Positions 5,151 through 61,383 of a DNA stretch of 64,000 nucleotides are shown here, one piece after another. The notes beneath the pieces were generated by a model. That model was not told the origin of the DNA. It made no database searches and saw only the letters and a program-made list of their open reading frames with translations. How positions within the stretch are numbered: position 1 is the stretch's first letter; every line of letters begins with the position of its first letter. The stretch is taken from NCBI GenBank assembly GCA_963775955.1, contig CAVZKT010000001.1, forward strand, positions 85,437-149,436. The letters are read 5' to 3'. The position numbers and the translations under genes are program-made. This DNA comes from Candidatus Moraniibacteriota bacterium (GTDB lineage Bacteria > Patescibacteriota > Minisyncoccia > Moranbacterales > UBA2206).

Positions 5151-5184
5151 CCCCGTTAGAATTTTAATCAAAGTTCTCATGGGG
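5151..5184. repeat. Short hairpin of the CCCCGTTAGAA family (CCCCGTTAGAA...TTCTCATGGGG)
   Basis: Imperfect inverted repeat immediately after the TGA stop at 5147-5149. It shares a terminus with the elements at 11278, 29853 and 61149. Confidence 0.6.
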
Positions 5185-5248
5185 CTTGAAGCTAATTTTT
5201 TATATTTTTAATACTTATTATTTTAATAGTAGTATTAATTCTAATGGG

Positions 5249-6523
5249 GTGAAATTCAAAAAAACTACGCTAAAAAATGGCTTGCGCATTCTGACTGTGC
5301 CGATGAAAGATACGCAAACAGCGACAGTGGTTGTTATGGTGGGCGTCGGTTCGCGCTATGAAACTGAAAAAGAAGCCGGAATTTCCCATTTTCTGGAGCA
5401 TATGTTTTTTAAGGGAACGGAAAAGCGGCCGACGACGCTGGATATTTCTTCGGAGCTGGATGCTATTGGCGGAGAATTCAACGCTTTTACGGCTAAAGAT
5501 AAGACCGGATATTATGCCAAAGTGGATTCAAAGCATACAAGCGTTGCATTGGACATTATCTCCGGACATATTTTTAAATTCAAAAATGGAAGCAAAGGAA
5601 ATTGAAAAAGAAAAGGGTACGATTATTCAGGAGATAAATATGTATGAAGATACGCCGAGAATGAAAATAGGGGACGTGTTTGAAAATTTAATTTTTACGG
5701 ACAGTTCTCTGGGAAGGGAAATAATTGGAAATAAAAAGACAGTAAAAAATTTTCAGAGAAAAGAGTTTGTTGGATTATAAAAATAAATTTTATGTGTCCA
5801 ATGATACGGTGGTTTGTGTTGCCGGAAATTTTAATGAAAAGAAAAATATAAAAAGCTTGAGGAATATTTTTCCAGAATGACAAAAAGGGAAAAAACCTGC
5901 ATTTAAAAAGGTCAAGGAAAATCAAAAACAAGCCGCAGGCTATAATGCGAAATTTAAAGAGAACAGATCAAACTCATTTAATACTGGGAAATCTGGCTTA
6001 TCATCATAATCACAAAGACCGTTTTATACTGGGACTTTTGGCCATTATTCTGGGCGGGAATATGAGCAGCCGGCTATTTTCGGAAATACGCGAGAAAAGA
6101 GGTTTGGCATACAGTGTCCATACCGGTGTTGAAGCTTATTCAGATTGCGGCTATATAGCTACGCAAGCCGGAGTAGAACATGGAAATCTTGAAAAAACAG
6201 TTGGAATTATTCTGAAGGAATATAAAAAAATATCAACAGAAAAAGTCAGTGAAAATGAATTAAAAAAAGCCAAAGATTATATTAAAGGGCAGAGTGTGAT
6301 GAATTTTGAATCGTCAGATGAAGTAGCTATGTTTTACATAGATCAGGAATTAATCAGGAAAAAGATAATGAATATGGAGGAGATATTCGCCAAGATTGAC
6401 AAAGTGACGGCAGATGACATACTAAAAGTAGCCAAGGATATTTTCAAAGAAAAAACGCTCAATCTAGCCGTTATTGGACCGCACCAGGACGGCAAAAAAT
6501 TGAAAAGAATACTTAAATTATAA
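5249..6523 (+). CDS. M16 (pitrilysin/insulinase) family zinc peptidase, at least 4 frame changes
   Basis: Contains the HFLEH inverted zincin motif in GISHFLEHMFFKGT. Fragments are 5186-5605, 5331-5780, unlisted frames at 5760-5940, and 5945-6523. The start (GTG 5249 or TTG 5186) is uncertain. Confidence 0.8.
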
Positions 6524-6527
6524 ATTT

Positions 6528-7556
6528 ATGGAAAATAAAAAAACCGTTGATATTTCCACTGGCATTGTTTTCAGAACGGTTTTGATTTTAATCGGCCTGT
6601 GGTTTTTGTATTTCGTCCGCGACATAATCGCCTTGCTTTTTATTTCCATAATTTTGGTGGCGGCCATGGACCCGATTGTTTACCGGCTGCGCCGCAGGCG
6701 AGTGCCGAGATCAATCGGAGTTTTAATTGTTTATGGCTGCCTTTTTGCGGTAATCAGTCTGGCTGTTTCTTTCCTGATTCCTCCGTTGGTCCAACAAATT
6801 AAAGACTTTACCCAGAAACTGCCCGATATCATCCGCAGTTTTGAGAATTCATTTCAGGGAATCAATACCTTTTTTCAAGCCCAGCACATAGCGGTAAGCA
6901 CTCAAGACCTGCTTTCAAGCATTGGAAATACGCTAGCTGGGTCTTCGGGAAATGTTTTCACGGCTACGATCGGCGTATTTTCCGGATTTGTTTCGGTCAT
7001 AATTGTTTTAGTCATGACTTTTTATATGGCGGTCAAAGAAGATGGGATAAAAAATTTCATTGTTTCCATAACGCCGCAAAAGCACAAAGATTATGCCGGC
7101 TCTTTAGTTTTGCGTGTTCAGAAAAAAATCAGCCGCTGGGTTTTGGGACAACTGGCTCTGATGTTTATTATTTTCGCTATGGATTTTATAGGGCTTTCTC
7201 TCTTGAAAGTTCCCTACGCCTTATCTTTGGCGATATTTGCCGGGCTTATGGAAATAATTCCTTTTATCGGACCGATTGTCTCACTGATCCCGGCGGTGCT
7301 GGTGGGGCTCACAATTTCTCCGCTTTCCGGGCTTTTGGTTTTTTTGCTTTATATTCTCGTTCAGCAATTTGAAGGCCATATCATTATTCCGCAGGTTATG
7401 AAAAAGGCGGTAGGACTGCATCCGATCGCGGTGATCCTGGCCTTGCTTGTCGGTTTGAAATTGGGCGGGGTGCTAGGCGCGCTTTTGGCTATTCCAGTGG
7501 CAACCGCCATTAGTGTCTTTGTTGGCGACCTTTTTGAAAAACCAAAAGAAGCGTAA
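6528..7556 (+). CDS. AI-2E family transporter (PerM/YhhT-like, UPF0118)
   Basis: 342 aa, polytopic membrane protein with the typical EIIPFIGPIVS segment. Confidence 0.75.
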   Translation: MENKKTVDISTGIVFRTVLILIGLWFLYFVRDIIALLFISIILVAAMDPIVYRLRRRRVPRSIGVLIVYGCLFAVISLAVSFLIPPLVQQIKDFTQKLPDIIRSFENSFQGINTFFQAQHIAVSTQDLLSSIGNTLAGSSGNVFTATIGVFSGFVSVIIVLVMTFYMAVKEDGIKNFIVSITPQKHKDYAGSLVLRVQKKISRWVLGQLALMFIIFAMDFIGLSLLKVPYALSLAIFAGLMEIIPFIGPIVSLIPAVLVGLTISPLSGLLVFLLYILVQQFEGHIIIPQVMKKAVGLHPIAVILALLVGLKLGGVLGALLAIPVATAISVFVGDLFEKPKEA

Positions 7557-7566
7557 CAAAGTTCCA

Positions 7567-7632
7567 CTTTCTTTTGTCAGCAAAGTATAAGCCTTACTTT
7601 TCTTGTCCCACAAGAAAAGTAACAAAAGAAAG
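7567..7632. repeat. Nested hairpin: outer CTTTCTTTTG/CAAAAGAAAG enclosing perfect TTACTTTTCTTGT-CCC-ACAAGAAAAGTAA
   Basis: Read directly. The inner stem is 13 bp perfect (7594-7622). Confidence 0.8.
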
Positions 7633-7682
7633 GGCCACCCGAAGCTCATCCACTAAAAAATTTTCAACTTTCTCACTAAAAA

Positions 7683-7717
7683 ATACCGGTTGCCCCGAGG
7701 CGGACCGGTATTTTTTT
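7683..7717. terminator. Bidirectional rho-independent terminator
   Basis: ATACCGGT...ACCGGTAT stem with an A-run upstream and T7 downstream. It sits between convergent genes. Confidence 0.75.
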
Positions 7718-7769
7718 ACGCTCGAAAGTCTTAATTTGTAATAGTGTCTGAGCCAGGGTGGGCTATCGG

Positions 7770-8240: not shown

Positions 8241-8348
8241 AATTTTAAATTTTTAATTTCAGATTTTAAAACAATTTCCAATTACTAAATTTTCAAAATT
8301 CTTAAAAGTCGGGTTGATAAACTTTATGTTTTAGGCTAGGATTAATTC

Positions 8349-9019: not shown

Positions 9020-9024
9020 ATTTT

Positions 9025-11277: not shown

Positions 11278-11394
11278 TTGACCCCGTTAGAAATTCATCT
11301 ATAGCCAGTGCTTTCAGTAAGAACTCGAGTGAAGCGGCTTTGCCTTAGTGTTTAAATATTAGTAGCTATTTGCAAAATTTCTAACGGGGTTGAC
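11278..11394. mobile_element. MITE-like element, termini CCCCGTTAGAAATT / AATTTCTAACGGGG, flanked by direct TTGAC
   Basis: 14-nt terminal inverted repeats. TTGAC at 11278-11282 and 11390-11394. The internal GTGAAGCGGCTTTGCC module is shared with the copy at 61149-61266. Confidence 0.7.
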
Positions 11395-12804: not shown

Positions 12805-12937
12805 ACCCTGTTAAATAAATTTTGCTAAAGCAAAATTAGATTTGAGAAAAACCGGGTGGATGGGTAAATCAAAAGTAATCATTAGAAAAATAAGGCGATT
12901 CTATAAAAGAATAGACTCAAATCTTATTTAACAGGGT
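12805..12937. mobile_element. MITE-like element (ACCCTGTTAAATAA ... TTATTTAACAGGGT) between atpE and atpF
   Basis: 14-nt perfect terminal inverted repeats. Related to the CCCCGTTAGAA family. The right end is 2 nt from the atpF ATG. Confidence 0.65.
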
Positions 12938-16342: not shown

Positions 16343-17756
<1,414 letters not shown>

Positions 17757-23215: not shown

Positions 23216-23246
23216 CCCCGCACCAAGCGAAGCTTTGGTGCCGGGG
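23216..23246. repeat. Hairpin element P2 (CCCCGCACCAAGC-GAA-GCTTTGGTGCCGGGG)
   Basis: Read directly. A second copy with a flipped loop is at 30921-30951. Confidence 0.85.
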
Positions 23247-23290
23247 TGGATAAGCCTCGGAATCTGGCAAAAAGTGTGACAGTTGAATAG
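23246..23290 (+). other. Second, untranslated copy of the last 14 glmS codons plus stop
   Basis: Encodes VDKPRNLAKSVTVE*, identical to 23153-23197, with 10 nt differences in 8 codons, all synonymous. It is 48 nt downstream of the real stop and in the same frame. Confidence 0.9.
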
Positions 23291-28390: not shown

Positions 28391-28547
28391 ATCCCGCACT
28401 AAATTCCGAGTACAATCCGGGGTAATCCAGGGCGTCATTCACGGAATCGCCTGCGGCTTAGATGGTTATTAATAAAAATTTATATTGCGAATTAGTGCGG
28501 GATGCTCAATTTTGTAGCCGCTCGCATAGCTCGCAGACAAAATTGGC
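28391..28547 (+). promoter_or_regulatory. Conserved structured leader/repeat (copy A) abutting the permease start codon
   Basis: Arms are ATCCCGCACTAAATT / AATTAGTGCGGGAT. Blocks shared with copy B (51855-52007): ATTCCGA, CGGAATCGCCTG, GGCTTAG, GGGATGCTCA, GACAAAA. Confidence 0.65.
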
Positions 28548-29762: not shown

Positions 29763-29805
29763 AAAGTTTATAAAGTCTGTAAAGTTTAAAGTTCATAAAG
29801 TTTGC

Positions 29806-29831
29806 CGCTGCGTTGCAGCGCTTTTTGTTTT
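29806..29831 (+). terminator. Rho-independent terminator
   Basis: CGCTGC-GTT-GCAGCG followed by CTTTTTGTTTT. Confidence 0.65.
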
Positions 29832-29852
29832 GTGATAGTTTAAAATATATTA

Positions 29853-29948
29853 ACCCTGTTAGAAATTAAGCAGAATTTTTTGCGGGGAGATTTTAATTAT
29901 TTATGTAATTTTGCTGTTTTTAACAGACGGCAGAATTTCTAACGGGGT
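29853..29948. mobile_element. MITE-like element (ACCCTGTTAGAAATT ... GAATTTCTAACGGGGT) abutting folD
   Basis: Terminal inverted repeats of the CCCCGTTAGAA family. The right end overlaps the probable GTG start of folD (29947). Confidence 0.65.
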
Positions 29949-30920: not shown

Positions 30921-30951
30921 CCCCGCACCAAGCTTCGCTTTGGTGCGCGGG
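30921..30951. repeat. Hairpin element P2 (CCCCGCACCAAGC-TTC-GCTTTGGTGCGCGGG)
   Basis: Same stem as 23216-23246 with the loop reverse-complemented. An additional GCGGGG (30899-30904) pairs with CCCCGC. Confidence 0.85.
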
Positions 30952-31786: not shown

Positions 31787-31864
31787 CTACAAAATTACAA
31801 AAAAATACAAAAGTGCAAAATTTTGTATTTTTGTAAAAATTCGTAATTTTGTAGAATGATAATT
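31787..31864. repeat. Long imperfect hairpin built from TACAAAA/TTTTGTA words between parA and parB
   Basis: CTACAAAATTAC...GTAATTTTGTAG outer arms, and AAATACAAAA...TTTTGTATTT inner arms. Confidence 0.8.
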
Positions 31865-31888: not shown

Positions 31889-32785
31889 ATGACTGCACAA
31901 AACCATGGCCTTGGCCGGGGATTATCCTCGCTCATCCCTAAAAAAACGGACTTACGCAGAACCAGTGCGGACTCGGGCGGAAATATGAACACAGAGAATG
32001 GTTCTCTGTATAAAACTGTCAACAGGACACTGGAAGTTGAAATTGTAAAAATTTCATCCAATCCCCATCAGCCGAGAATGCATTTTGATGAAGAGAAGCT
32101 CAAGGAACTGGCCGACTCTATAAAGGTGCATGGCATTATCCAGCCGATAGTCGCGACTAAAGCTAATAATGGTTACGAAATTATTGTGGGAGAGCGCCGT
32201 TTCCAGGCCGCCAAGCTGGCGGGACTTAAAACAGTGCCGATAATTGTGAGAGACGCGACGGAGCAGCAAAAACTGGAGATGGCCATTGTTGAAAATATCC
32301 AACGGCATGATTTGAATGTTATCGAGGAAGCGAAAGCCTATCAGGAACTGGCCGCGGAGTTTGATTTGAGCCAGGAAGCTATCGCGCAAAAAGTCGGCAA
32401 AAGCCGCAGCGCCGTGGCTAATAAAATCAGGCTTTTAAATTTGCCGGTGGAAATTCAAAGAGCGCTGATTAACGGGCAAATTACTGAAGGGCATGCCAAA
32501 GCGATTTTGGCGATTCCCAATTTGGAAAAACAGAGAGCGCTTTTTGAAATGATATTAAAAAGCAATTTAACGGTTCGCCAAACAGAAGATAAGACCAAAG
32601 AAATTTCCGTGCGCACTCACAAGCGCGTAATTCATATTGATCCAGAAATGAAAGAAGTAGAAAATAAATTAGTGGAAATTTTGGGAACCAGGGTCAAGGT
32701 GGTGAAATCAGGCGGCGGAGGAAAAATTGTGATTGAATATTATTCTCAGGAAGAATTAAATAATATACTTAGCAAAATTTTTTAG
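31889..32785 (+). CDS. parB: Chromosome partitioning protein ParB/Spo0J
   Basis: ISSNPHQPR, IVGERRFQAAKLAG, HTH region. Confidence 0.93.
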   Translation: MTAQNHGLGRGLSSLIPKKTDLRRTSADSGGNMNTENGSLYKTVNRTLEVEIVKISSNPHQPRMHFDEEKLKELADSIKVHGIIQPIVATKANNGYEIIVGERRFQAAKLAGLKTVPIIVRDATEQQKLEMAIVENIQRHDLNVIEEAKAYQELAAEFDLSQEAIAQKVGKSRSAVANKIRLLNLPVEIQRALINGQITEGHAKAILAIPNLEKQRALFEMILKSNLTVRQTEDKTKEISVRTHKRVIHIDPEMKEVENKLVEILGTRVKVVKSGGGGKIVIEYYSQEELNNILSKIF

Positions 32786-32788
32786 AAT

Positions 32789-32939
32789 CTGTTTGAATAG
32801 TCTCTTTCGTCGCGAAATCGTCAAATTTCAAGCGAAAAAAATGAAACGCGAGAAGGCATACTAAAGATATGGCGACGAGCGATGAATTTTTTGCAGCCGA
32901 AATTTGGAGATTGCAGCAGAATATGGACTATTCAAACAG
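32789..32939. repeat. Element with perfect 14-bp terminal inverted repeats CTGTTTGAATAGTC / GACTATTCAAACAG
   Basis: Fills the spacer between convergent parB and relA. There is an inner TCGTCGC/GCGACGA pairing. Confidence 0.8.
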
Positions 32940-32941
32940 GT

Positions 32942-34423
32942 TCACAGCACCCCTTCCCTTTTTAAAGCTTTCTTGATGTGGCTTTTAGCCAAGGTTGTGC
33001 GCACGAAGCGCAGCCAATCCTGGCTGGGTGATTTGTGCTCTTTAGTGGTGATAATTTCAATCACTTCTCCGTTTCTGATTTTATAGTCCAGAGGGACCAT
33101 TTTTCTGTTGGCTTTGGCGCCTACAGCCCGGTCTCCGATTTCGCTATGAACCTTATAGGCAAAATCAACTGGTGTGGCTTCTTCCGGAAGGTCAATAACA
33201 TCCCCATGCGGCGTAAAAGCAAAGATATGGTTTTTAAAAAAATCGATTTTTAACCCTTCAATAAATTCTTCATTGTCCTTTCCTAGTTCACCCTGCCATT
33301 CCTGAAGCTGGCGCACCCAGACTAGTTCTTCATCCGGTACTTTTTCTTTTTTGCCAAAACCAAAAAACGATTTCCACTTTTTGGATTGTTCGCTGTAAAT
33401 CCAGTGGGCGGCGATTCCAAACTCCGCTTCGTCATGCATCTTTTGAGTTCTAATCTGAACCTCCATTATTTTTCCTTCCGGTCCAAAAACTGTGGTATGA
33501 ATGGACTGGTAGCCATTGGGCTTGGGCAGTGATATGTAGTCTTTTATTCTCCCGACCAATGGGCGATATTTTTTGTGGACGATACCCAGAGTTTCATAGC
33601 AATCAGCAACTTCAGGAACAATGATTCTAATGCCGGCTAAATCATAAATTTTATTAATATCCATATCATGCCGCTGCAGTTTTAAAAAGAGCCGGTAGAT
33701 GCGCTTGGTGCGCCCGTAAATGTCGAGAACTTCAATTTTGGATTTTCCTAACTCTTTTTTAAGTTCGCCTACCATTTTTTCCAAATTCTTTTTGCGTATT
33801 CCAAATTCTTTTTCCTCCAGATTTTTTACAAGTTCGTAATTTTTCGGATCCAGGTATTTAAAAGCCAGATCTTCAAGGCGTCCTTTTATTTCTCCGATTC
33901 CCAAGCGGTTGGCGATAGGAACATAAACATCAAGAGTTTCGCGCGCAATGCGTGTTCGTTTTTCGGGCGGGAGCGCTCCCAGGGTTTCCATATTATGCAG
34001 GCGGTCAGCCAATTTTATAATCACCACGCGTATATCTTCCGCCATGGCCAAAAACATTTTGCGCAGATTTTCAAGATAAAGCTCTTCCTTGGTTCCGCGC
34101 AATTTTATTTTTCCCAGCTTTGTGACTCCATCAACCAAAAAAGCGATTTCACGGCCGAATTTATCTTCAATTTCTTTAAGGGTTACATTAGTGTCTTCGG
34201 GAATGTCATGCAAGAGTCCGACTGAAATAGTTTTTGAGCCCATGCCAATATGGGCGATGTTTAGCGCGGTATGCAGGGAATGCTGGATATATTCCTCGCC
34301 GGATTTCCTTTTTTGTCCCTTATGGGCGCGCTCGGCAAATTCAAAAGCGCTGCGAATCAGTTTTTCGCGTTCCGGCGTGTGGGCGCCCCGCAGGTTTTTT
34401 AACACGGTTTCAATGGTAATCAT
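32942..34423 (-). CDS. relA: Bifunctional (p)ppGpp synthetase/hydrolase (RelA/SpoT homologue)
   Basis: HD domain (HDIPEDT), synthetase domain (YQSIHTTV), and TGS (FTPHGDVIDLPEEATPVDFAY). Confidence 0.93.
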   Translation of the reverse strand: MITIETVLKNLRGAHTPEREKLIRSAFEFAERAHKGQKRKSGEEYIQHSLHTALNIAHIGMGSKTISVGLLHDIPEDTNVTLKEIEDKFGREIAFLVDGVTKLGKIKLRGTKEELYLENLRKMFLAMAEDIRVVIIKLADRLHNMETLGALPPEKRTRIARETLDVYVPIANRLGIGEIKGRLEDLAFKYLDPKNYELVKNLEEKEFGIRKKNLEKMVGELKKELGKSKIEVLDIYGRTKRIYRLFLKLQRHDMDINKIYDLAGIRIIVPEVADCYETLGIVHKKYRPLVGRIKDYISLPKPNGYQSIHTTVFGPEGKIMEVQIRTQKMHDEAEFGIAAHWIYSEQSKKWKSFFGFGKKEKVPDEELVWVRQLQEWQGELGKDNEEFIEGLKIDFFKNHIFAFTPHGDVIDLPEEATPVDFAYKVHSEIGDRAVGAKANRKMVPLDYKIRNGEVIEIITTKEHKSPSQDWLRFVRTTLAKSHIKKALKREGVL

Positions 34424-36656: not shown

Positions 36657-36728
36657 GGAGCATGGAACATGGAACATGGAACAATTTTTCTTTAAATTGT
36701 TTTATGTTCTATGTTATGTGTTATGTGA
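36654..36728. repeat. Hairpin built from CATGGAA words (left) and GTTCTATG/GTTATGTG words (right)
   Basis: CATGGAGCATGGAACATGGAACATGGAAC ... GTTCTATGTTATGTGTTATGTG. It overlaps the topA start and the dprA stop. Confidence 0.75.
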
Positions 36729-38980: not shown

Positions 38981-39188
38981 TGAAAGGCAAGGGAGAAAAT
39001 AAAAAAACATTATACCAGGCAAGTATGATCATACTTTAAAATGGCATAATGCATTTTTATAAAAGCTTTTTGATCCTCCTTCGCCAAAGCTATGGAAGGA
39101 TTTCACTCAATTTATTTTTGTAGGAGTTGTTCAATTTCATTTAAGATATCAGGTGATATCTTTTTTACCCCAGCACTTTTTTGTTTTC

Positions 39189-39776
39189 TTAATTCGTATT
39201 TAGAATTAATTTTGGCAGCTCGTTTTCAATTATTTGCAAAAGTGCGGGGTAAATTTTTTCAGATTCATCTTCGGTAAATTTATCTAATACATAATCTTGT
39301 GCGCCCAACCTGCATTTTTTAGAGTCCTCGATAGAATCCTCTTTAGAGGCCTCTACTCCGATGCCGATGCGGATGCGTTTGAATTTTTGCGTGCCTAAGT
39401 TTTCAATAATATTCTCAACTCCGTGATGACCGGCGGAAGAGGAATCGGTCGCGATTTTATATTTTTCAACAGCAATGTCCAGATCGTCGTGGATGACGAT
39501 AATATCATCAGCCGTTAATTTATAAAAATCCAAAATATTTTTTACAGTGGTGCCGGAGAGATTCATATATGTTGCTGGCTTAATCAAGAGAAGTTTGTAG
39601 TTTGTAGTTTGTAGTTTGTAGTTTCCTTCGGATATTTTAGAATTAAATTTTTTATTGTATGCAAATGGAGGAAAATCCCAAAGCTCGCGCAACTTATCCG
39701 TAAAGAAAAAGCCGACATTGTGGCGGGTGTTTTCATATTCTTTGCCGGGATTACCTAAACCAAAAATTATTTTCAT
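39189..39776 (-). CDS. pth: Peptidyl-tRNA hydrolase
   Basis: MKIIFGLGNPGKEYENTRHNVGF, YMNLSG, HDDLD. Confidence 0.93.
   Translation of the reverse strand: MKIIFGLGNPGKEYENTRHNVGFFFTDKLRELWDFPPFAYNKKFNSKISEGNYKLQTTNYKLLLIKPATYMNLSGTTVKNILDFYKLTADDIIVIHDDLDIAVEKYKIATDSSSAGHHGVENIIENLGTQKFKRIRIGIGVEASKEDSIEDSKKCRLGAQDYVLDKFTEDESEKIYPALLQIIENELPKLILNTN
39592..39626. repeat. Tandem heptamer AGTTTGT x4.7 inside pth
   Basis: Read directly. Translated on the minus strand as NYKLQTTNYKL. Confidence 0.9.
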
Positions 39777-41411: not shown

Positions 41412-42035
41412 ATGGATTTTGAACCAAAAAAGAACACAAAAGAAGAGCAATACTATGGCATTGGCGGTTTTATTTTGGAAATAATCAAAGTTTTTGTTTT
41501 GGCGCTGGTCATTATTTTACCAATCAGGGTTTTTTTGTTTCAGCCTTTTTTTGTGCAGGGCGCTTCCATGGAGCCGAATTTTGAAGACAGCCAATATCTC
41601 ATCATCAATGAACTTGGCTATAAACAAACCGCGGTGGATATAAGTAATTTTCATTTGTTTACTGTAAGTCCTTTTCGGGAACTGGAAAGGCAAGAAGTCG
41701 CAGTTTTTCGCTATCCGAAAAATCGCAGCCAATTTTTCATTAAAAGAATAATCGGCCTGCCGGGAGAAAAGGTGCAAATAAAAGAAGGAGTAGTGACTAT
41801 ATTTAACAAAGAAAATGCAGATGGTTTTCTTCTGGATGAAAGCGCCTATCTTTCTTCCAAAGTGAAAACTCAGGGAGAGATGGCGCTTGCCCTCAAGGAT
41901 GATGAATATTTCGTCATGGGAGATAACCGCGGCGCCAGTTCAGATTCCCGCTCCTGGGGTCCGGTAAAGGAAAATAATATTATTGGAAAAGTATTATTGC
42001 GGGCGTGGCCGCTTGATCAGCTATCGCTGTATTAA
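41412..42035 (+). CDS. lepB: Signal peptidase I
   Basis: GASMEPNF (Ser box), RIIGLPGE, GDNRGASSDSR. Confidence 0.92.
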   Translation: MDFEPKKNTKEEQYYGIGGFILEIIKVFVLALVIILPIRVFLFQPFFVQGASMEPNFEDSQYLIINELGYKQTAVDISNFHLFTVSPFRELERQEVAVFRYPKNRSQFFIKRIIGLPGEKVQIKEGVVTIFNKENADGFLLDESAYLSSKVKTQGEMALALKDDEYFVMGDNRGASSDSRSWGPVKENNIIGKVLLRAWPLDQLSLY

Positions 42036-42160
42036 ATCCAAAATCCAAAATCTCAAATTCCAAATAAATAATAAATTCAAAAACCAAAATACAAAACTCT
42101 CTATATTTTAAAAATTATAATTTTAAATTTGTTTGTGATTTGTAATTTTGTATTTGTAAT
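42036..42160. repeat. Word-hairpin element (CCAAAAT words / ATTTGTAATTTTG words) abutting hisS
   Basis: Shares a ~60-nt core (AAATTATAATTTTRAATTT...GATTTGTAATTTTGWATTTGTAATTT) with 60205-60336. Confidence 0.8.
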
Positions 42161-42169
42161 TTAAGCAGT

Positions 42170-43853: not shown

Positions 43854-43854
43854 T

Positions 43855-43934
43855 CATATAACATACAACATGAAACATGTAACAAAAACTACTAATTAGA
43901 AAATTGTTACATGCTATATGCTTCATGCTTCATG
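43855..43934. repeat. Hairpin built from ACATG/CATGA words
   Basis: CATATAACATACAACATGAAACATGTAACAA ... TTGTTACATGCTATATGCTTCATGCTTCATG. The right arm runs into the next ORF's start. Confidence 0.75.
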
Positions 43935-44390
43935 AGTATTTCTTTAAAACAAAAAATATTTTCCGATCTAAAAGAAGCGATGAAGGCGGGGGACGCGTTG
44001 AAGCGCGATACTCTGCGGATGCTGGATGCAATGATAAAAAACACGGAAATAGAAAAAATGAAAAAGGAAGATGGGCTGACTGACGCGGAAACTGTTGAAG
44101 TTTTGTCGCGCGCGGTAAAGCAGAGGCGCGACAGCGTAGAGCAATTTGAAAAAGGCGGCCGGCAGGATTTAGCCGAAAAAGAAAAAAAAGAAATAGAAAT
44201 CATTTCCGCCTATCTTCCGGAACAACTGGGCGAGGATAAAATCAGGGAAATTATCAAAGAAGTTATCACGGCCGCCGGAGCCAGCTCCAAAGCTGACATC
44301 GGAAAAGTTATGGGGCAGGCGATGGGCAAATTAAAAGGCCAGGCGGACGGGAACATGGTGAAAAAAATTGCGGAAGAAGAATTGCCGTAA
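43932..44390 (+). CDS. yqeY: GatB/YqeY domain protein
   Basis: LKEAMKAGDALKRDTLRML and GKVMGQAMGKLKGQADG motifs. Confidence 0.88.
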   Translation: MSISLKQKIFSDLKEAMKAGDALKRDTLRMLDAMIKNTEIEKMKKEDGLTDAETVEVLSRAVKQRRDSVEQFEKGGRQDLAEKEKKEIEIISAYLPEQLGEDKIREIIKEVITAAGASSKADIGKVMGQAMGKLKGQADGNMVKKIAEEELP

Positions 44391-48325: not shown

Positions 48326-48363
48326 AGTGTGATTTTTTCCGCATATGCGGAAAAAATCACACT
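48326..48363. repeat. 38-nt perfect palindrome AGTGTGATTTTTTCCGCAT|ATGCGGAAAAAATCACACT
   Basis: Read directly. Confidence 0.95.
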
Positions 48364-48388
48364 TGGTAAATAATTATTTCTTTTATGT

Positions 48389-48420
48389 CTGTTATTTTCT
48401 GCGTAAGCAAAAAATAACAG
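48389..48420. repeat. Hairpin CTGTTATTTTCTGC-GTAA-GCAAAAAATAACAG
   Basis: 14-bp stem with one mismatch and a GTAA loop. Confidence 0.9.
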
Positions 48421-48457
48421 GTTTTTGAGATTTTTGTTTTAAGAAATTATTCAGTGG

Positions 48458-48485
48458 CGATGTAAGTAATTAATTACTTACATCG
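48458..48485. repeat. 28-nt perfect palindrome CGATGTAAGTAATT|AATTACTTACATCG
   Basis: Read directly. Confidence 0.95.
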
Positions 48486-51609: not shown

Positions 51610-51854
51610 AAAAGGGGTAAAACTTGATTTTCCGTAACGCATTTGACAGGATAGACAGCCATATGATAGATTTAGATACTGAGAAAGCGGGGATTCTTTA
51701 GGTGAAAATCAGGCGTTTTTCAAAACCAAAACCAAAAGTCTAAAACAAAAAATATTAAAAACTGATTGATAGAAACAGGTTTTTGATTTTTATTTTTAGG
51801 CTTATTTTTTTTGAATTTTTTAAATTTTCAAGTATATTAAAGAAATAGTAAGGC

Positions 51855-52007
51855 ATCCCAGTACCGATTCCGACTGAGATTTGCCAAATATAATAATTTT
51901 TCTGCGGAATCGCCTGATGGCTTAGTCAGGGTATAATTTAAAGATTTAATTTAGAATCGGTACGGGATGCTCATTTTTGCAGCTTCTCGCTATCGCTCAA
52001 GACAAAA
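51855..52007 (+). promoter_or_regulatory. Conserved structured leader/repeat (copy B) abutting the ftsZ start codon
   Basis: Arms are ATCCCAGTACCGATTC / GAATCGGTACGGGAT. Same conserved blocks as copy A (28391-28547). An internal GGGTATAAT is present. Confidence 0.65.
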
Positions 52008-53214
52008 ATGGCAGAAATCAAACCACCCGTAGAAACATTCGCGCGCATTAAAGTCGTGGGCGTTGGCGGTTCTGGAGGAAGCGCGATCAGCCGGATGATT
52101 GAATCAAAACTGCGCGGCGTTGAATTCGTGGCGATCAATACTGACGCGCAGGCCCTGCATCACAATAAAGCCACGGAAAAAGTGCATATCGGAAAAAATC
52201 TGACCAAGGGACTGGGGGCCGGGATGAATCCGGATATCGGACGGCAGGCGGCCGAAGAGAACCGCGAAGAAATTCAGGAGGTGCTTAAAGGGCTCGGATA
52301 TGGTTTTTGTCACTTGCGGATTAGGCGGCGGAACCGGGACAGGCGCGGCGCCGATTGTGGCGGAAACTGCCAAAGAACTGGGAGCTCTCACGGTCGCGGT
52401 GGTAACTAAGCCGTTTGCTTTTGAAGGCGCGCAAAGAAGGGCGATTGCGGAAGAGGGACTGGAAAATTTGCGCGAACGAGTAGATACTCTCATTATTATT
52501 CCCAACGACAAGCTGCTGCAGATTATCGACAAGAAAACGACGCTTATAAATTCCTTTCAAGATTGTGGATGATGTCCTGCGCCAGGGCGTGCAGGGGATT
52601 TCGGATCTTATTACCAAGCCAGGAGTGGTGAATGTTGACTTTGCCGACGTGAAAGCGATTATGGCAAGACAGCGGGTCAGCTCTTATGGGGATTGGCGTG
52701 GGACCGGGGGAAAATCGCGCGGCGGACGCGGCCAAGGCGGCCATCAACAGCCCGCTTTTGGAACTTTCCATTGACGGCGCCAAAGGCGTGCTTTTCAATG
52801 TCAGCGGGATCCAATGATCTGACAATGCTGGAAATCAATGAAGCGGCCAATATTATCACTGAATCCATTGACCCGAACGCCAAAGTCATTTTCGGCGCGG
52901 TGGTGGAGGAAACTATCAGAAAAGGGGAGGTGCAGATTACAGTAGTCGCGACCGGATTTGACGCGGAAAGAGTGAAGGAATCTCCAATAGAAAAAATGTC
53001 GCGGCTTTCCATTGAGCGCGGTAAAAATCAGGAAAGCGAAGGAAAAGAAAAGTCAAAAATTACTTTTCCGGCGCAGGGCGAGCACAAAATGATTATCGAG
53101 GAAAAGGTCCAGCCGAAACCGCAAAGAACTTTCACGCAGGTGGAAAAATCTTTAGAGGATGAGGATGACGAACTGGAAATCCCGGCGTTCATCCGGAGGA
53201 AGATGGGGAAGTAG
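52008..53214 (+). CDS. ftsZ: Cell division protein FtsZ, 4 frame changes
   Basis: [42 protein letters not shown], and C-terminal [12 protein letters not shown]. Junctions near 52295, 52560, 52665 and 52812 each look like one extra base in a GG/GGG or AA run. Confidence 0.93.
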
Positions 53215-53225: not shown

Positions 53226-53318
53226 ACATAACTCGTAACTCATAACGCATATTTATTAAAATAACCTTGAGAAATCAGGGTTATTTTTTTAGTGTCGAGT
53301 TATGGGTTACGAGAGTTG
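53226..53318. repeat. Word hairpin (CATAACTCGTAACTCATAAC / GTTATGGGTTACGAG) enclosing the ftsZ terminator
   Basis: The inner AATAACCTTGA-GAAA-TCAGGGTTATT hairpin plus T7 (53260-53290) is a rho-independent terminator. Confidence 0.75.
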
Positions 53319-53326
53319 AGGTAAAA

Positions 53327-55285: not shown

Positions 55286-55298
55286 TAAAAAATCAAAT

Positions 55299-57246: not shown

Positions 57247-57344
57247 TTTCCAGAGGATTTAAAAATAGCTTTAAAAGGGGCTGTTTTTAAAACTCTTGCC
57301 AAAGCTTGGCGGATTTTGTAGTTGTGGTATAATAGTATTTACAT

Positions 57345-57360
57345 ACACAATATGTGGTAT
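57345..57360. promoter_or_regulatory. Candidate NrdR box (ACACAATATGTGGTAT)
   Basis: 13/16 match to the recalled consensus acaCwAtATaTwGtgt. Lies 12 nt downstream of the extended -10 TGGTATAAT (57325-57333), upstream of nrdR-nrdD. Confidence 0.3.
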
Positions 57361-57367
57361 ATACTAG

Positions 57368-57456
57368 TTATAAAGTTTATAAAGTTAGAAAGTTTATAAA
57401 AAAAATAGTTAGAAAGAATAATCTTTACGAACTTTAAAAACTTGATAAACTTTTTT
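57368..57456. repeat. Word hairpin (ATAAAGTTT words / AAACTTT words) upstream of nrdR
   Basis: TTATAAAGTTTATAAAGTTAGAAAGTTTATAAA ... TCTTTACGAACTTTAAAAACTTGATAAACTTTTTT. Confidence 0.75.
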
Positions 57457-57467
57457 AACTTATTTTT

Positions 57468-60138: not shown

Positions 60139-60204
60139 GGTTTAGGAAAAAACAAAGAGATAAAGGGGCGGCTTTGGTTTTTAAATCAGGTCGCCCTTAA
60201 TTTA

Positions 60205-60336
60205 AAAAATCCAAAATTCGAAATCACAAATTCCAAACAAATTACAATGTTCAAAAAACAAAACCCAAAACATTTTGAATTTTGAAAATTATAATTTTGA
60301 ATTTATTTAGGATTTGTAATTTTGAATTTGTAATTT
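60205..60336. repeat. Word-hairpin element abutting the nrdG start (same family as 42036-42160)
   Basis: AATCCAAAATTCGAAATCACAAATTCCAAAC ... GATTTGTAATTTTGAATTTGTAATTTT. The shared core contains ATTATAAT. Confidence 0.8.
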
Positions 60337-60337
60337 T

Positions 60338-61041
60338 ATGGTGTTGGGCGGTTACCAAAAACTTACCCTCATTGATTATCCCGGAAAAATTGCCACCACG
60401 GTTTTTACGGTTGGCTGCAGTTTTCGCTGTCCGTTTTGCCATAATCCGGAATTAGTTAAACATGGAACATGGAACATGGAACAAAGAACAACGATGGAAA
60501 AAGAGTTTTTTGAGTTTTTGAAAAAAAGCAAAGGCAAGCTGGAAGGCGTGTGCATTACTGGAGGCGAGCCGGCGATCCAGCCTGATTTGGAAGAATTTAT
60601 CAAAAAAATAAAAAAGCTGGGTTTTTTGGTAAAGCTGGATACTAATGGCAGCCGGCCGGATGTGCTCAAGAAACTTATGGATAAAAAACTTCTGGATTTT
60701 GTGGCAATGGACATAAAAAGCAGCTCGAAAAATTATATTAAAACGACAGGATTAAAAGTGGATATCAAAAGGATAAAATTAAGCGTTAATTTGATAATGA
60801 AACAGCAAACTGCCGTATGAATTTCAGAACTACGGTTGTGCCCGGCATCCACACGGAAAAAGATTTTGAGGAAATCGCCAAATGGATCAAAGGCGCCAAG
60901 ACTTATTATCTCCAGGAATACCGCGAAATTAAAATTCTGGATCCCAAGCTTAAGAAAAAAACCAAAGGCAAAACCATTGATCTGGAAAAAATTAAGAAAA
61001 AAATCGAGAAAAATTTCGGGAAGATGGGAATCAGGAGGTAA
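60338..61041 (+). CDS. nrdG: Anaerobic RNR activating enzyme (radical SAM), 2 frame changes near 60800-60825
   Basis: CSFRCPFCHN cluster, ITGGEP. YEFRTTVVPG is readable only after removing one A (AAA run) and one base in ATTTCAG. Confidence 0.88.
60461..60482. repeat. CATGGAA x3 array inside nrdG
   Basis: The 22-mer CATGGAACATGGAACATGGAAC is identical to 36663-36684. Translated as HGTWNMEQ. Confidence 0.9.
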
Positions 61042-61051
61042 AATCATACCT

Positions 61052-61383
61052 ATGAGAATTTATATAAAAGTCCTGCCTCGTTCGTCAAAAAATGAGGTCG
61101 CGAAAGTTTCCGAAGGGGAATATAAAGTGAAGCTGACCGCCCCACCAATTGACCCCGTACGAAGTTCATCAACAATTTTGTTTTTACAAACACGCTCAAG
61201 CGAAGCGGCTTCGCCTCTATATTTTTCTGTCAGCAAGCGCTTCTCAAAACTTCTAACGGGGTTGACGGCGCGGCCAATAAAATGCTATTAGATATACTAG
61301 CGGAGTATTTTAGTATTAGCAGAAGTTCGTTAAAAATCATCGGCGGAAAAACTGCCAGGGTTAAATTAGTAGAAATTTCATAA
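61052..61383 (+). pseudogene. yggU: DUF167/YggU family gene interrupted by a 113-nt MITE-like insertion
   Basis: MRIYIKVLPRSSKNEVAKVSEGEYKVKLTAPPID (frame 2) resumes as GAANKMLLDILAEYFSISRSSLKIIGGKTARVKLVEIS* (frame 1) after the insertion. Confidence 0.8.
61149..61266. mobile_element. MITE-like element (CCCGTACGAAGTT ... AACTTCTAACGGGG) flanked by direct TTGAC, inside yggU
   Basis: TTGAC at 61149-61153 and 61262-61266. The internal CTCAAGCGAAGCGGCTTCGCC module matches the copy at 11278-11394. Confidence 0.75.

What the first reader, a model, noticed from the sequence alone, without database searches (positions are those of the whole stretch)
5151..61266. Almost every intergenic spacer is a long, locus-specific hairpin
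Spacers at 5151, 7567, 11278, 12805, 23216, 28391, 29853, 30899 and 31787 each consist largely of one imperfect inverted repeat. So do those at 32789, 36654, 42036, 43855, 48326, 51855, 53226, 57368, 60205 and 61154. The arms differ from locus to locus, and each repeat often nests a terminator. Ordinary terminators explain only the innermost stems. The scale (70-150 nt) and ubiquity suggest a genome-wide process or function, such as transcript insulation, RNase processing, nucleoid organisation or selfish hairpin proliferation.
Basis: seen in the sequence. Interest (0 to 1): 0.55.

Follow-up and report, generated by a model that had tools for sequence, protein, structure and literature searches.

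The report
Mobile hairpin elements fill gene junctions
A bit over half of the gaps between genes in this small-genome (Patescibacteria/CPR) bacterium hold short inverted-repeat DNA elements from a handful of repeated, mobile (MITE-like) families, one of them shared across many bacterial phyla, so they look like tolerated genomic parasites rather than locus-specific regulatory hairpins.

Summary
The hairpins are real. All 19 listed sites fold, and 16 of 19 fold better than at least 198 of 200 shuffles. Spacers fold far better than matched coding DNA (median z -2.2 against -0.1).

Two parts of the claim fail. Only about 20 of 36 true spacers carry a long inverted repeat, not "almost every" one. 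The arms are not locus-specific: they fall into multi-copy families.

Family A has the ends CCCCGTTAGAAATT...AATTTCTAACGGGG and five copies in the window. It is flanked by 4-bp target-site duplications (T-N-N-A) in 49 of 92 copies, against a null of 8%. It occurs in CPR, Planctomycetota, Omnitrophota, Deltaproteobacteria and other phyla. It inserts at TGAA of ATGAA start regions and ATGA stop/start overlaps, turning the start codon into GTG.

Families B, C1-C4, D, E and F are also dispersed repeats. Close relatives have empty sites (0-12 nt spacers) at the same junctions, or different hairpins there.

The stems show no sense-strand bias, and some elements sit inside the atp operon. This argues against selected RNA hairpins.

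Best reading: MITE-like elements tolerated only at gene junctions of a compact genome that rarely uses Shine-Dalgarno sites. No transposase was found. The insertion mechanism is well supported only for family A.

The parts
5151..5249 (.). Family A MITE-like element. TGAA is duplicated on both sides (5147-5150 and 5250-5253). It splits an ATGA stop/start overlap. The upstream ORF keeps its TGA stop (5147-5149). The downstream M16 peptidase starts at GTG 5249-5251, whose G comes from the element end.
   Evidence: z -3.1
7567..7761 (.). Two hairpins between convergent genes. The first is 7567-7632 (11+12 bp stems). The second is a 127-nt inverted repeat at 7635-7761 whose core, 7678-7716, is a bidirectional terminator (A-run, stem, T-run). 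Family not assigned.
   Evidence: z -6.9
8241..8307 (.). Family F: an AT-rich hairpin of AATTTTAAATTT units. It is not significant on its own. It is homologous to hairpins in the parA-parB junction of about ten relatives, and to two copies in L145.
11282..11389 (.). Family A element with perfect 14-bp ends (15 bp counting the flanking A and T) and a TTGA duplication. It lies between tatD and the atp operon.
   Evidence: z -5.0
12805..12937 (.). Family A variant (CCCTGTTAAATAA...TTATTTAACAGGG). Both arms have changed together. It lies inside the atp operon, between atpE and atpF, and ends 2 nt before the atpF ATG.
   Evidence: z -6.3
16445..16493 (.). A 49-nt hairpin (two 15-mers, AGACATCCGATGTCT and AGACATCGGATGTCT, 19 nt apart) lying in frame inside atpD. 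It adds 11 residues relative to L145.
23216..23247 (.). Family D-like minimal palindrome, CCCCGCACCAAGC-GAAG-CTTTGGTGCCGGGG, just after glmS. It is similar by eye to the palindrome at 30921-30951.
   Evidence: z -3.8
28391..28547 (.). Family B element: a long outer hairpin (28391-28503) plus a second stem, ending at the ftsX ATG. In relative L123 the two genes overlap (ATGA) at this site. An imperfect direct repeat GCAT(G)AGATT flanks the insertion.
29763..29947 (.). Composite spacer with three parts: a half copy of a C3 arm (29763-29801), a terminator (29806-29820), and a family A element (29854-29947). The element is inserted at TGAA of the folD ATGAAA, and folD now starts at GTG 29947. L123 is empty at this site.
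   Evidence: z -3.5
30921..30951 (.). Family D-like palindrome, CCCCGCACCAAGCTTCGCTTTGGTGCGCGGG, next to tRNA-Leu (30806-30889, minus strand).
   Evidence: z -3.7
31787..31857 (.). Class C hairpin with arms of TACAAAA / TTTTGTA units, in the parA-parB junction. The junction is 107 nt here and 9-26 nt in 12 relatives.
   Evidence: z -7.0
32785..32943 (.). Family E: a 159-nt near-perfect hairpin (52 of 61 positions paired, 14-bp perfect ends) that fills the whole gap between the convergent parB and relA stop codons. That gap is 12 nt or less in 15 relatives.
   Evidence: z -4.1
36657..36727 (.). Family C2 hairpin, with arms of about four heptamers each. Read in the direction of the genes (minus strand), the units are CACATAA-like and then TTCCATG. 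The last ATG is the topA start (36656-36654). The dprA stop lies in the other arm. The site is empty in L126, L133 and L163.
   Evidence: z -6.7
39164..39253 (.). Family D-like element, TTTACCCCAGCAC...GTGCGGGGTAAA, overlapping the 3' end of the pth gene.
42034..42162 (.). Family C1 element with arms of CCAAAAT-like heptamers. It is 83% identical over 130 nt to 60207-60336. It starts at the lepB stop codon. L124 has a 10-nt spacer at this site.
43854..43935 (.). Family C2 element (CATNNAA x4 then TTNNATG x4). It starts right after a TAA stop. The last ATG (43932) is the start of the YqeY-like gene.
   Evidence: z -3.4
48326..48485 (.). Three perfect palindromes: 48326-48363 (19-bp arms), 48389-48420 and 48458-48485 (14-bp arms). 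No related copy was found. Nature undetermined (operators or terminators).
   Evidence: z -10.8
51722..52010 (.). A class C-like hairpin (51722-51819, AAAACC units) followed by a family B element (51855-52010). The 3' end of the family B element contains the ftsZ ATG (52008).
   Evidence: z -3.5
53226..53320 (.). Class C4 hairpin with arms of CNTAACN heptamers. It encloses a terminator-like inner hairpin with a T-run.
   Evidence: z -7.6
57366..57463 (.). Family C3 hairpin (TAAAGTT / AACTTTA units) ending 4 nt before the nrdR ATG. L151 holds related copies. At the same junction L001 has a different hairpin and L002 has a family A element. The neighbouring palindrome 57338-57383 matches the NrdR-box consensus as I recall it (not tested) and is not part of the element.
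   Evidence: z -2.9
60207..60336 (.). Family C1 element, the second copy in the window. It ends exactly at the nrdG ATG (60338). Related copies are in L139 and L160.
61153..61261 (.). Family A element with a TTGA duplication. It is 70% identical to the copy at 11282. An orthologous copy is present in L001 (about 13286-13394).
   Evidence: z -3.0

Best explanation
The long spacer hairpins are copies of several families of short, non-coding inverted-repeat elements (MITE-like). These elements have inserted, repeatedly and in a lineage-specific way, into the gene junctions of a compact Patescibacteria genome.

The ancestral junctions were only 0-25 nt long or overlapping. One 70-160 nt insertion therefore becomes essentially the whole spacer, which is why 'the spacer is a hairpin'.

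Family A (ends 5'-CCCCGTTAGAAATT) inserts by a staggered 4-bp cut at T-N-N-A (TTAA-like). This is the signature of a cut-and-paste DDE transposase of the piggyBac/IS1380 type acting in trans. When family A lands in the TGAA of an ATGAA start or an ATGA stop/start overlap, the duplication preserves the upstream stop. Together with the element's terminal G, it also rebuilds a GTG start. Both genes therefore survive.

The other families (B, C1-C4, D, E, F) are dispersed repeats with the same junction habit. Their insertion chemistry is not established.

The hairpin-forming potential is a by-product of terminal inverted repeats at the DNA level. It is not an RNA structure selected at each locus. 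Insertions that abut start codons are probably tolerated because most genes here lack a Shine-Dalgarno site and many look leaderless.

Shown: enrichment, families, duplications for family A, empty sites, cross-phylum spread, lack of strand bias. Inferred: the type of transposase, the mobility mechanism of families B to F, and neutrality.
For: (1) Families rather than unique arms.
- Family A has five copies in the window.
- Family B has two copies, plus copies in L001 and L123.
- The two C1 copies are 83% identical over 130 nt, loop included, at unrelated loci, with further copies in L139 and L160.
- C2 has two copies plus L148/L149, and C3 has four more in L151.
- Family F has two copies 5.5 kb apart in L145, one of them between atpA and atpG.

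(2) Target-site duplication for family A.
- In 92 complete copies, the 4 nt on either side are identical in 49. Mismatched pairs give a null of 8.2%.
- The signal appears only at a length of 4.
- The consensus is T (43 of 49), N, N, A (47 of 49), with T and A commonest in the middle.

(3) Pairing of the ends is specific to cellular genomes. It is seen for 103 of 139 exact motif hits in genome contigs, against 2 of 79 in viral contigs.

(4) Host loci range from 32% to 56% G+C and carry many phylum labels.

(5) Empty sites in close relatives.
- ABC/ftsX: the genes overlap in L123, against a 174-nt spacer holding family B here.
- ftsX/folD: no element in L123, and folD starts ATGAAACTT there.
- parB/relA: 12 nt or less in 15 relatives, against 156 nt here.
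- lepB/hisS: 10 nt in L124, against 134 nt here.
- parA/parB: 9-26 nt in 12 relatives, and 76-174 nt holding at least seven different hairpin types in 19 others (window included).
- The converse also occurs: relA/topA is 5 nt here but 254-540 nt with large inverted repeats in L124 and L135.

(6) Inverted-repeat density varies from 1.3 to 7.7 per 10 kb among relatives. It is 1.4 in the closest relative by ParB identity (L123) and 4.1 here.

(7) No RNA-level signature. On the sense strand, G-U-type mismatches number 13 and A-C-type 15. Summed folding energy is -440 kcal/mol for sense and -447 for antisense. The F-family alignment gives no covariation support. No Rfam family matches, even at E up to 1.

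(8) Elements lie inside operons: atpE-atpF here, atpA-atpG in L145.

(9) Complete or half elements also occur in frame in variable loops of coding genes: atpD, an ELP3-like gene, and nrdG.

(10) Only 11 of 72 genes have a Shine-Dalgarno-like 4-mer upstream, against an 8% background.

(11) Published features of the piggyBac superfamily are a 4-bp TTAA duplication (variants TAAA, CTAA, TCAA) and ends beginning CCC. IS1380 is its prokaryotic relative, and one IS1380-family member has a 5-bp duplication (PMC10813416; PMC3281130).
Against: - No autonomous element with these ends was found in 119 genome loci. ORFs next to unpaired motifs are ordinary genes.
- No ORF in the window matches a transposase family in Pfam.
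- There is no match in the plasmid collection.
- Duplications are demonstrated only for family A. The class C, D and E ends are AT-rich or palindromic, and no duplication could be read.
- In families B and D and in the 12805 variant, the two arms differ between copies but stay complementary within a copy. This is not what independent transposase-binding ends predict.
- Different hairpins occupy the same junction in different relatives (upstream of nrdR, upstream of topA, parA-parB). This could also reflect selection for 'some hairpin' there.
- The phylum labels come from metagenome bins.
- Only 64 kb of this genome and fragments of about 45 relatives were seen.
Confidence: 0.7

Rival explanations
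1. The hairpins are functional RNA structures selected in place at each junction. They would act as terminators or insulators between transcription units, as RNase III or other processing sites, or as mRNA stabilisers. Their sequences turn over quickly because only the structure matters.
For: - Different hairpins occupy the same junctions in different relatives.
- Arms co-vary between family B copies.
- Some hairpins enclose or sit beside real terminator-like stems with T-runs: 7678-7716, 53226-53320 and 29806-29820.
- Many hairpins end at the start codon, where structure could tune translation.
Against: - Every junction checked has relatives with abutting or overlapping genes, so the hairpin is dispensable.
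- Sense and antisense strands fold equally well, and G-U-type mismatches are not favoured on the sense strand.
- Hairpins sit inside the atp operon, where termination would be harmful.
- Most lack a T-run.
- Copies at unrelated loci share loop sequence as well as arms.
- Family A has target-site duplications.
- The F-family alignment shows no covariation support.
Confidence: 0.12
2. The low-complexity hairpins (class C and F) are not transposed. They grow in place from small palindromes in AT-rich spacers, by replication slippage of 7-9 nt units and by template switching that copies one arm onto the other.
For: - The arms are tandem arrays of 7-9 nt units (CATNNAA, CCAAAAT, TACAAAA, TAAAGTT).
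- No duplication could be read at their ends.
- Arm complementarity is kept while sequences differ between families.
- No transposase was found.
Against: - Two C1 copies at unrelated loci share 83% identity over 130 nt, including the non-repetitive loop.
- Two F copies lie at unrelated junctions in L145.
- The same families occur at different junctions in different genomes. This requires movement or copying between loci.
- In-place growth does not explain family A.
Confidence: 0.1
3. The repeats are binding sites for a host DNA-binding protein, comparable to REP/BIME elements that bind gyrase or IHF, or are mobilised by a REP-associated tyrosine transposase as REPIN-like doublets. They would then serve nucleoid organisation.
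For: - They are intergenic, abundant and palindromic.
- The family A ends are strongly conserved across phyla, which implies recognition by a conserved protein.
- The inverted-repeat doublet with a variable spacer resembles the REPIN layout.
Against: - REP elements and RAYT-type single-strand transposition make no target-site duplication, whereas family A has a 4-bp one.
- I saw no conserved 5' GTAG motif in the sequences printed.
- The single ends are not themselves palindromes.
- There is no RAYT-like or other transposase-like gene in the window.
- Hairpin load differs several-fold between close relatives.
Confidence: 0.05
4. The hairpins belong to a known hairpin-based array system: integron attC recombination sites following gene cassettes, or TIGR stem-loop guide-RNA arrays.
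For: - attC sites are variable 57-141 nt imperfect palindromes that follow each cassette ORF (from my own knowledge).
- TIGR stem-loop arrays occur in CPR bacteria and lack sequence conservation (PMC12045711).
Against: - The flanking genes are housekeeping genes kept in conserved order (leuS, glmS, atp operon, parAB, topA, nrdDG, ftsAZ), not cassettes.
- Pfam found no integrase domain and no Tas-like (Nop-domain) protein in the window.
- The family A ends read 5'-GTTAG...CTAAC-3', the reverse of the attC order R''(..TAAC)...R'(GTTA..).
- The hairpins are dispersed singly, not in tandem arrays. Box C/D motifs were checked only by eye in a few loops, and none was seen.
Confidence: 0.02

Closest known systems
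Bacterial MITEs at gene junctions: Correia elements (NEMIS) of Neisseria, RUP of Streptococcus pneumoniae, ERIC/IRU of enterobacteria (comparison from my own knowledge)
   Same: - They are short (about 100-160 bp) and non-coding.
- They have terminal inverted repeats that make long hairpins.
- They have many dispersed copies in intergenic DNA.
- They are often co-transcribed with neighbouring genes.
- Their presence or absence differs between strains.
- Family A also has a short target-site duplication.
   Different: - The duplication is 4 bp (T-N-N-A), not TA.
- The ends are unrelated in sequence.
- Several unrelated families coexist in a genome of roughly 1 Mb with no transposase in view.
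- Family A is shared across phyla rather than confined to one genus.
- The elements typically fill the entire stop-to-start gap and can rebuild the start codon.
piggyBac superfamily and its prokaryotic relatives, the IS1380 family (PMC10813416, PMC3281130)
   Same: - The duplication is 4 bp with a TTAA-like consensus, and the variants seen (TAAA, TCAA, CTAA) match published piggyBac variants.
- The ends begin with 5'-CCC.
- The behaviour is consistent with cut-and-paste.
   Different: - No transposase gene with these ends was found.
- The middle two bases of the target are relaxed.
- The IS1380 member read about has a 5-bp duplication.
- The assignment rests on end and duplication features only.
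Rickettsia palindromic elements (RPE) (from my own knowledge)
   Same: They are palindromic repeats in a reduced genome, found in spacers and also in frame inside protein-coding genes. Here that applies to atpD 16445-16493, and to arm fragments in the ELP3-like gene and nrdG.
   Different: - RPEs are 100-150 bp and are mostly noted within genes.
- Here the in-gene cases are short, and the bulk of copies lies at junctions.
- There is no sequence relationship.
REP / REPIN elements mobilised by RAYT transposases (from my own knowledge)
   Same: The layout is an inverted doublet forming a hairpin of about 100 nt, intergenic and abundant.
   Different: - REPINs make no duplication.
- REPINs carry a conserved GTAG.
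- REPINs accompany a RAYT gene.
- None of these three features was seen here.
Intrinsic (Rho-independent) terminators
   Same: A minority of the stems are GC-rich with a T-run: 7678-7716, 23306-23329, 29806-29820, 44852-44875 and the core of 53226-53320.
   Different: Terminators explain only these short inner or adjacent stems. The 70-160 nt outer repeats lack T-runs, occur inside operons, and belong to repeat families.

Membership tests
MITE (miniature inverted-repeat transposable element) | Short (under about 300 bp), with no coding capacity | tested here: met
   Elements are 23-220 bp, and those in the window are 31-159 bp. Coding scores of the spacers holding them are near zero.
MITE (miniature inverted-repeat transposable element) | Terminal inverted repeats | tested here: met
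   Family A has 14-15 bp ends, family B 12-16 bp, family E 14 bp perfect, and class C 30-70 nt imperfect arms.
MITE (miniature inverted-repeat transposable element) | Target-site duplication flanking the element | tested here: met
   Met for family A only: 49 of 92 copies have identical flanking 4-mers against an 8.2% null, and only at a length of 4. Family B has imperfect 6-9 bp direct repeats, which is inconclusive. For classes C, D, E and F no duplication could be read.
MITE (miniature inverted-repeat transposable element) | Multiple dispersed copies within and between genomes | tested here: met
   Window copy numbers are A x5, B x2, C1 x2, C2 x2 and C3 x1.5, with further copies in relatives. 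Family A is found in 92 complete copies across many phyla.
MITE (miniature inverted-repeat transposable element) | Insertion polymorphism with recognisable empty sites | tested here: met
   Empty orthologous junctions were found in L123, L124, L126 and others for families A, B, C1, C2 and E and for the parA-parB hairpin.
MITE (miniature inverted-repeat transposable element) | A cognate autonomous element (transposase gene) with the same ends | tested here: not met
   None was found in 119 genome loci of up to 8 kb each, in the window (Pfam) or in the plasmid collection. The search was limited: whole genomes could not be scanned.
piggyBac / IS1380 superfamily (as the mobilising enzyme for family A) | 4-bp (IS1380: 4-5 bp) duplication, TTAA-like | tested here: met
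   The consensus is T-N-N-A, with T then A commonest in the middle. The comparison is with PMC10813416 and PMC3281130.
piggyBac / IS1380 superfamily (as the mobilising enzyme for family A) | Ends beginning 5'-CC(C) | tested here: met
   Family A ends begin CCCCG, and families B and D begin (A/T)CCCG or CCCCC. The comparison is with PMC10813416.
piggyBac / IS1380 superfamily (as the mobilising enzyme for family A) | DDD/DDE transposase of that family encoded by a full-length copy | tested here: not met
   No full-length copy was found.
Integron attC sites | Follow promoterless cassettes next to an integron integrase, with R''(RYYYAAC) at the 5' end and R'(GTTRRRY) at the 3' end | tested here: not met
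   The genes are housekeeping genes in conserved order, and Pfam found no integrase. Family A reads GTTAG...CTAAC, the opposite order.
TIGR stem-loop arrays (TIGR-Tas) | Tandem arrays of stem-loops with box C / box D motifs and dual spacers, next to a Tas gene | tested here: not met
   The hairpins are single and dispersed, and there is no Tas-like (Nop-domain) protein in the window. Box C/D motifs were checked only by eye in a few loops. The features are taken from PMC12045711.
REP / REPIN | No duplication, a conserved GTAG beside a short palindrome, and an associated RAYT gene | tested here: not met
   Family A has a 4-bp duplication. The window encodes no transposase-like or RAYT-like protein. 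No GTAG was seen by eye in the printed sequences; this was not searched systematically.
Any Rfam RNA family | Match to a curated covariance model | tested here: not met
   Only tRNA-Leu reaches the gathering score. At E up to 1 the only addition is a chance-level MicC hit.

The most novel reading that the evidence does not exclude
These could be transposase-orphan hairpin elements specifically adapted to the gene junctions of streamlined genomes that rarely use Shine-Dalgarno sites.

Their polarity is a G-poor 5' arm and a C-poor 3' arm, and it is the same on both strands. In either orientation the 5' arm therefore offers TAA stops but few start codons, and the 3' arm offers ATG, GTG or TTG next to the downstream gene. 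Such elements could split overlapping stop/start junctions, or sit in frame in coding loops, while rebuilding both codons.

On this reading family A would be a pan-bacterial piggyBac/IS1380-type MITE. The co-varying arms of families B and D would point to hairpin-dependent copying rather than classical recognition of the ends.
Probability: 0.22. Interest if true: 0.7.

Novelty: new member of a known kind. Interest (0 to 1): 0.5.

Why it matters
CPR/Patescibacteria genomes are usually described as streamlined and poor in mobile DNA. Here a substantial share of the non-coding DNA is made of small inverted-repeat elements that turn over between close relatives.

This matters in four ways:
- **Annotation.** Start codons are shifted to GTG at element ends, and spacers could be misread as regulatory RNAs.
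- **Comparative genomics and strain typing.** The junctions are polymorphic between relatives.
- **Gene expression.** Hairpins are placed inside operons and against start codons.
- **Mobile-element biology.** One 14-nt end with a 4-bp T-N-N-A duplication is shared by CPR, Planctomycetota, Omnitrophota, Deltaproteobacteria and others. That implies a widespread transposase that has not been identified, or frequent horizontal spread.

No paper in the searchable library contains the end sequence or describes MITEs in this group.

Tried and rejected
- **Autonomous copy of family A.** I looked for ends 0.6-4 kb apart in all loci and inspected ORFs beside 27 unpaired motifs. All were ordinary genes, such as response regulators, 6-phosphogluconate dehydrogenase and ABC components.
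- **Plasmid collection.** A 50-nt family A copy gave no match.
- **Viral contigs.** There were 79 exact motif hits but only 2 paired ends. Phages are therefore not obvious carriers, and this served as a negative control.
- **Rfam.** Searches at the gathering score and at E up to 1 found nothing for any hairpin.
- **Literature.** A search for the end sequence, and for MITEs or palindromes in Patescibacteria, found nothing relevant.
- **TIGR stem-loop arrays and integron attC sites.** Both were considered and rejected on architecture and gene context (Pfam calls).
- **Sense-strand RNA selection.** No G-U excess and no energy asymmetry were found.
- **Covariation in family F orthologues.** The arms are conserved in sequence and the covariation term is not supportive.
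- **Exact-protein look-up of the window's own contig.** Not on record. The rest of the 287-kb source contig could therefore not be read.
- **First gene model.** It counted pieces of frameshift-split genes as spacers. This was corrected with coding scores and Pfam.
- **Duplications for classes C, D and E.** They could not be determined because the flanks are AT-rich or extend the palindrome.

Full report
**Source and context.** The window has about 41% G+C, and most genes lie on the + strand. Its NrdD is identical to a protein from a 287-kb NCBI/ENA contig. The nearest named relatives are Patescibacteria, mostly labelled Moranbacteria.

The genes are housekeeping genes: tgt, proS-like, the atp operon, leuS, glmS, an ABC/ftsX pair, folD, parAB, relA, topA, dprA, pth, lepB, hisS, purD, ftsAZ, nrdR/D/G and comEC. 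No ORF matches a transposase, integrase or Tas-like family. The only Rfam hit is tRNA-Leu.

- All 19 listed sites contain an inverted repeat. Folded as single-stranded DNA, their z-scores are -1.7 to -10.8. Sixteen of 19 are reached by at most 2 of 200 dinucleotide shuffles.
- Spacers have a median RNA-fold z of -2.18, with 58% below -2. Matched coding segments have a median of -0.12, with 9% below -2 (p = 4e-7).
- A DNA-level inverted-repeat score is significant (at most 5 of 100 shuffles) in 19 of 39 spacers, against 3 of 39 coding controls.
- Perfect stems of 10 bp or more are about 5.5-fold denser in spacers than in coding DNA.
- The window holds 26 strong inverted repeats; a shuffled copy holds 4.

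'Almost every spacer' is too strong, however. Many genes in this window are split by frameshifts, and about ten of my first 'spacers' are really coding. After correction, about 20 of 36 true spacers hold a long repeat, about 6 hold only a short terminator or palindrome, and about 9 hold nothing.

**The arms are not locus-specific.** The spacers at 5151, 11278, 29853 and 61154 share the ends CCCCGTTAGAAATT / AATTTCTAACGGGG, and 12805 carries a variant. All-against-all BLAST of the spacers, against the window and against relatives' loci, defines further families:
- **B:** 28391 and 51855, plus copies in L001 and L123.
- **C1:** 42034-42162 and 60207-60336, 83% identical over 130 nt including the loop, plus L139 and L160.
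- **C2:** 36657 and 43854, plus L148/L149. Each arm has four heptamers (CATNNAA, then TTNNATG).
- **C3:** 57366, a half copy at 29763, and four copies in L151.
- **C4:** 53226.
- **D-like:** CCCCGCACC palindromes at 23216, 30921 and 39164, with CCCCCACACCAATT relatives in L001, L002 and L160.
- **E:** 32785-32943.
- **F:** the AT-rich element at 8241, with two copies in L145.

**Family A behaves as a transposable element.** In these loci, 103 of 139 exact occurrences have an inverted partner within 450 nt. In viral contigs only 2 of 79 do, which serves as a control.

The 92 complete copies are 23-220 bp long, and their internal sequences are unrelated between lineages. The four bases immediately outside the two ends are identical in 49 of 92 copies. 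Mismatched left/right pairs give 8.2%, and no other length shows the effect. The consensus is T-N-N-A, with T and A commonest in the middle.

The hosts carry labels from CPR groups, Saccharibacteria, Planctomycetota, Omnitrophota, Deltaproteobacteria/Thermodesulfobacteriota, Nitrospirae, KSB1 and others. Their loci range from 32% to 56% G+C, so this is not one mis-binned lineage.

A 4-bp TTAA-like duplication with ends beginning CCC is the published signature of piggyBac elements, whose prokaryotic relatives are the IS1380 family (PMC10813416; PMC3281130). That assignment is an inference: no autonomous copy was found.

**Empty sites and how insertions spare the genes.** Relatives were fetched around nrdD (L001 at 94% and L002 at 89% protein identity) and around parB (L123 at 85%, L124 at 82%, and about 40 more).
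- In L123 the ABC and ftsX genes overlap (ATGA). The window has a 174-nt spacer holding family B at that site.
- In L123 folD starts ATGAAACTT after a terminator and promoter. In the window, family A sits at that TGAA, and folD now starts GTGAAACTA, the G being the last base of the element.
- The same pattern is seen at 5151, where the TGAA duplication splits an ATGA overlap. The upstream TGA is kept and the peptidase starts at GTG.
- It is also seen at nrdR in L002.
- The convergent parB and relA stops are 12 nt or less apart in 15 relatives and 156 nt apart here (family E).
- lepB/hisS is 10 nt in L124 and 134 nt here (C1).

The parA-parB junction is the most informative. It is 9-26 nt in 12 relatives. 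It is 76-174 nt in 19 others (window included), filled by at least seven different hairpin types, including C1, C3 and F.

The converse also occurs. relA/topA and several atp junctions are tight here but hold large inverted repeats in relatives.

Inverted-repeat density ranges from 1.3 to 7.7 per 10 kb among relatives. Because ancestral junctions are tiny, one insertion becomes the entire spacer.

**DNA-level repeats, not selected RNA folds.** For 15 elements between co-directional genes, G-U-type mismatches on the sense strand number 13, against 15 of the A-C type. Summed RNA folding energies are -440 kcal/mol (sense) and -447 (antisense). Family F orthologues conserve arm sequence without supportive covariation.

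Elements sit inside the atp operon (atpE-atpF here, atpA-atpG in L145), so they cannot be efficient terminators. Only a few stems look like ordinary terminators.

Only 11 of 72 genes have a Shine-Dalgarno-like motif, against an 8% background. Several genes have TATAAT 6-9 nt before the ATG. This plausibly explains why insertions that abut start codons are tolerated.

**What remains unexplained.**
- No transposase is in view.
- Family B, family D and the 12805 variant have arms that differ between copies yet stay complementary within a copy. Family B always ends at a start codon (ftsX, ftsZ, nrdD, a pilB-like gene).
- Class C arms are tandem 7-9 nt units.
- Across 93 non-coding inverted repeats in the window and its CPR relatives, the 5' arm is C-rich and the 3' arm G-rich in 59, against 27 of the opposite kind (32 against 6 for strong cases). 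This polarity reads the same on both strands. It gives TAA stops but no start codons in the 5' arm, and start codons in the 3' arm.
- A complete hairpin lies in frame in atpD, and half arms lie in variable loops of an ELP3-like gene and nrdG. This recalls Rickettsia palindromic elements.

These points keep open a more novel reading (junction-adapted, possibly hairpin-dependent elements) and a minority role for growth in place.

**Verdict.** 'Locus-specific' is wrong.

These are new families of a known kind of element (bacterial MITEs; the closest analogues are Correia, RUP and ERIC elements, with family A showing a piggyBac/IS1380-like insertion signature). They are noteworthy for their density in a CPR genome, for the cross-phylum reach of family A, and for the way insertions rebuild stop and start codons.

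Noticed in passing
window 5249-6523, 8895-10437, 15354-18200, 29947-30787, about 31655, 34429-36656, 52008-53214, 60338-61041: Many essential genes are broken into two or three overlapping or adjacent ORFs in different frames: M16 peptidase, metG, atpG, atpD, atpC, folD, parA, topA, ftsZ and nrdG. folD, topA, ftsZ and nrdG were seen to be (or appear) uninterrupted in a relative. This suggests an indel-rich assembly, or less likely widespread pseudogenes. It inflates the apparent number of 'spacers'.
   Followed up: partly
window 16445-16493: A complete 49-nt hairpin (two 15-mers, AGACATCCGATGTCT and AGACATCGGATGTCT, 19 nt apart) lies in frame in the N-terminal barrel of atpD. It adds 11 residues relative to L145. 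This resembles Rickettsia palindromic elements inside genes.
   Followed up: partly
window 25625-25653 and 60463-60484: Exact copies of hairpin-arm sequence lie inside variable loops of coding genes. A 29/29 match to the C3 arm at 57372-57400 lies in an ELP3-like radical-SAM gene. A 22/22 match to the C2 arm at 36663-36684 lies in nrdG.
   Followed up: partly
window 38864-38990 (promoter-like site at 38837-38864): A structured non-coding element of about 125 nt is conserved at 84-88% nucleotide identity at the same place in L124, L126 and L163. It has a long closing stem and a CCUCCUCC loop, and no Rfam match. It is a candidate small RNA gene, and is not one of the mobile hairpins.
   Followed up: partly
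window 23420-23447: A perfect 12/12 sigma-70 consensus promoter (TTGACA, 16 nt, TATAAT) on the + strand lies in a 480-nt spacer with no downstream + strand ORF. It is followed by a 129-nt inverted repeat (23525-23653) ending in a bidirectional terminator. This may be an unannotated small transcript.
   Followed up: no
window, all gene starts: Only 11 of 72 predicted starts have a Shine-Dalgarno-like 4-mer at -20 to -4, against an 8% background. Several genes (45759, 49435, 61641) have TATAAT 6-9 nt before the ATG, suggesting leaderless mRNAs.
   Followed up: partly
window 57338-57383: A palindromic ACACAATATGTGGTATATAC region upstream of nrdR lies within a stretch (57235-57359) conserved in L001, and more weakly in L002. 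From my recall of the NrdR-box consensus it looks like NrdR operator boxes; this was not tested. It is a regulatory palindrome, distinct from the adjacent mobile hairpin.
   Followed up: partly
window 53405-57244 and L001 1171-9032: This is a variable island holding a LexA-like S24 peptidase, a BRO-N protein and a PIF1-type helicase. L001 carries extra genes here: NYN, a Tsp45I-like restriction enzyme and a methylase.
   Followed up: no
window 37868-38778: A DUF6922 protein and an AbiEii-type nucleotidyltransferase toxin form a pair, likely a type IV toxin-antitoxin system. They lie between dprA and the conserved RNA-like element.
   Followed up: no
L148/L149 parA-parB junction, against L143/L147: A GC-rich insertion of about 41 nt (CCGCCTCGCGTCGACGAACGTTTCCGCGAGTCGAGGCTGGC), which by eye looks able to fold into a hairpin, is nested inside an AT-rich TACGAAT-unit element. 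This suggests that elements also insert into one another.
   Followed up: no
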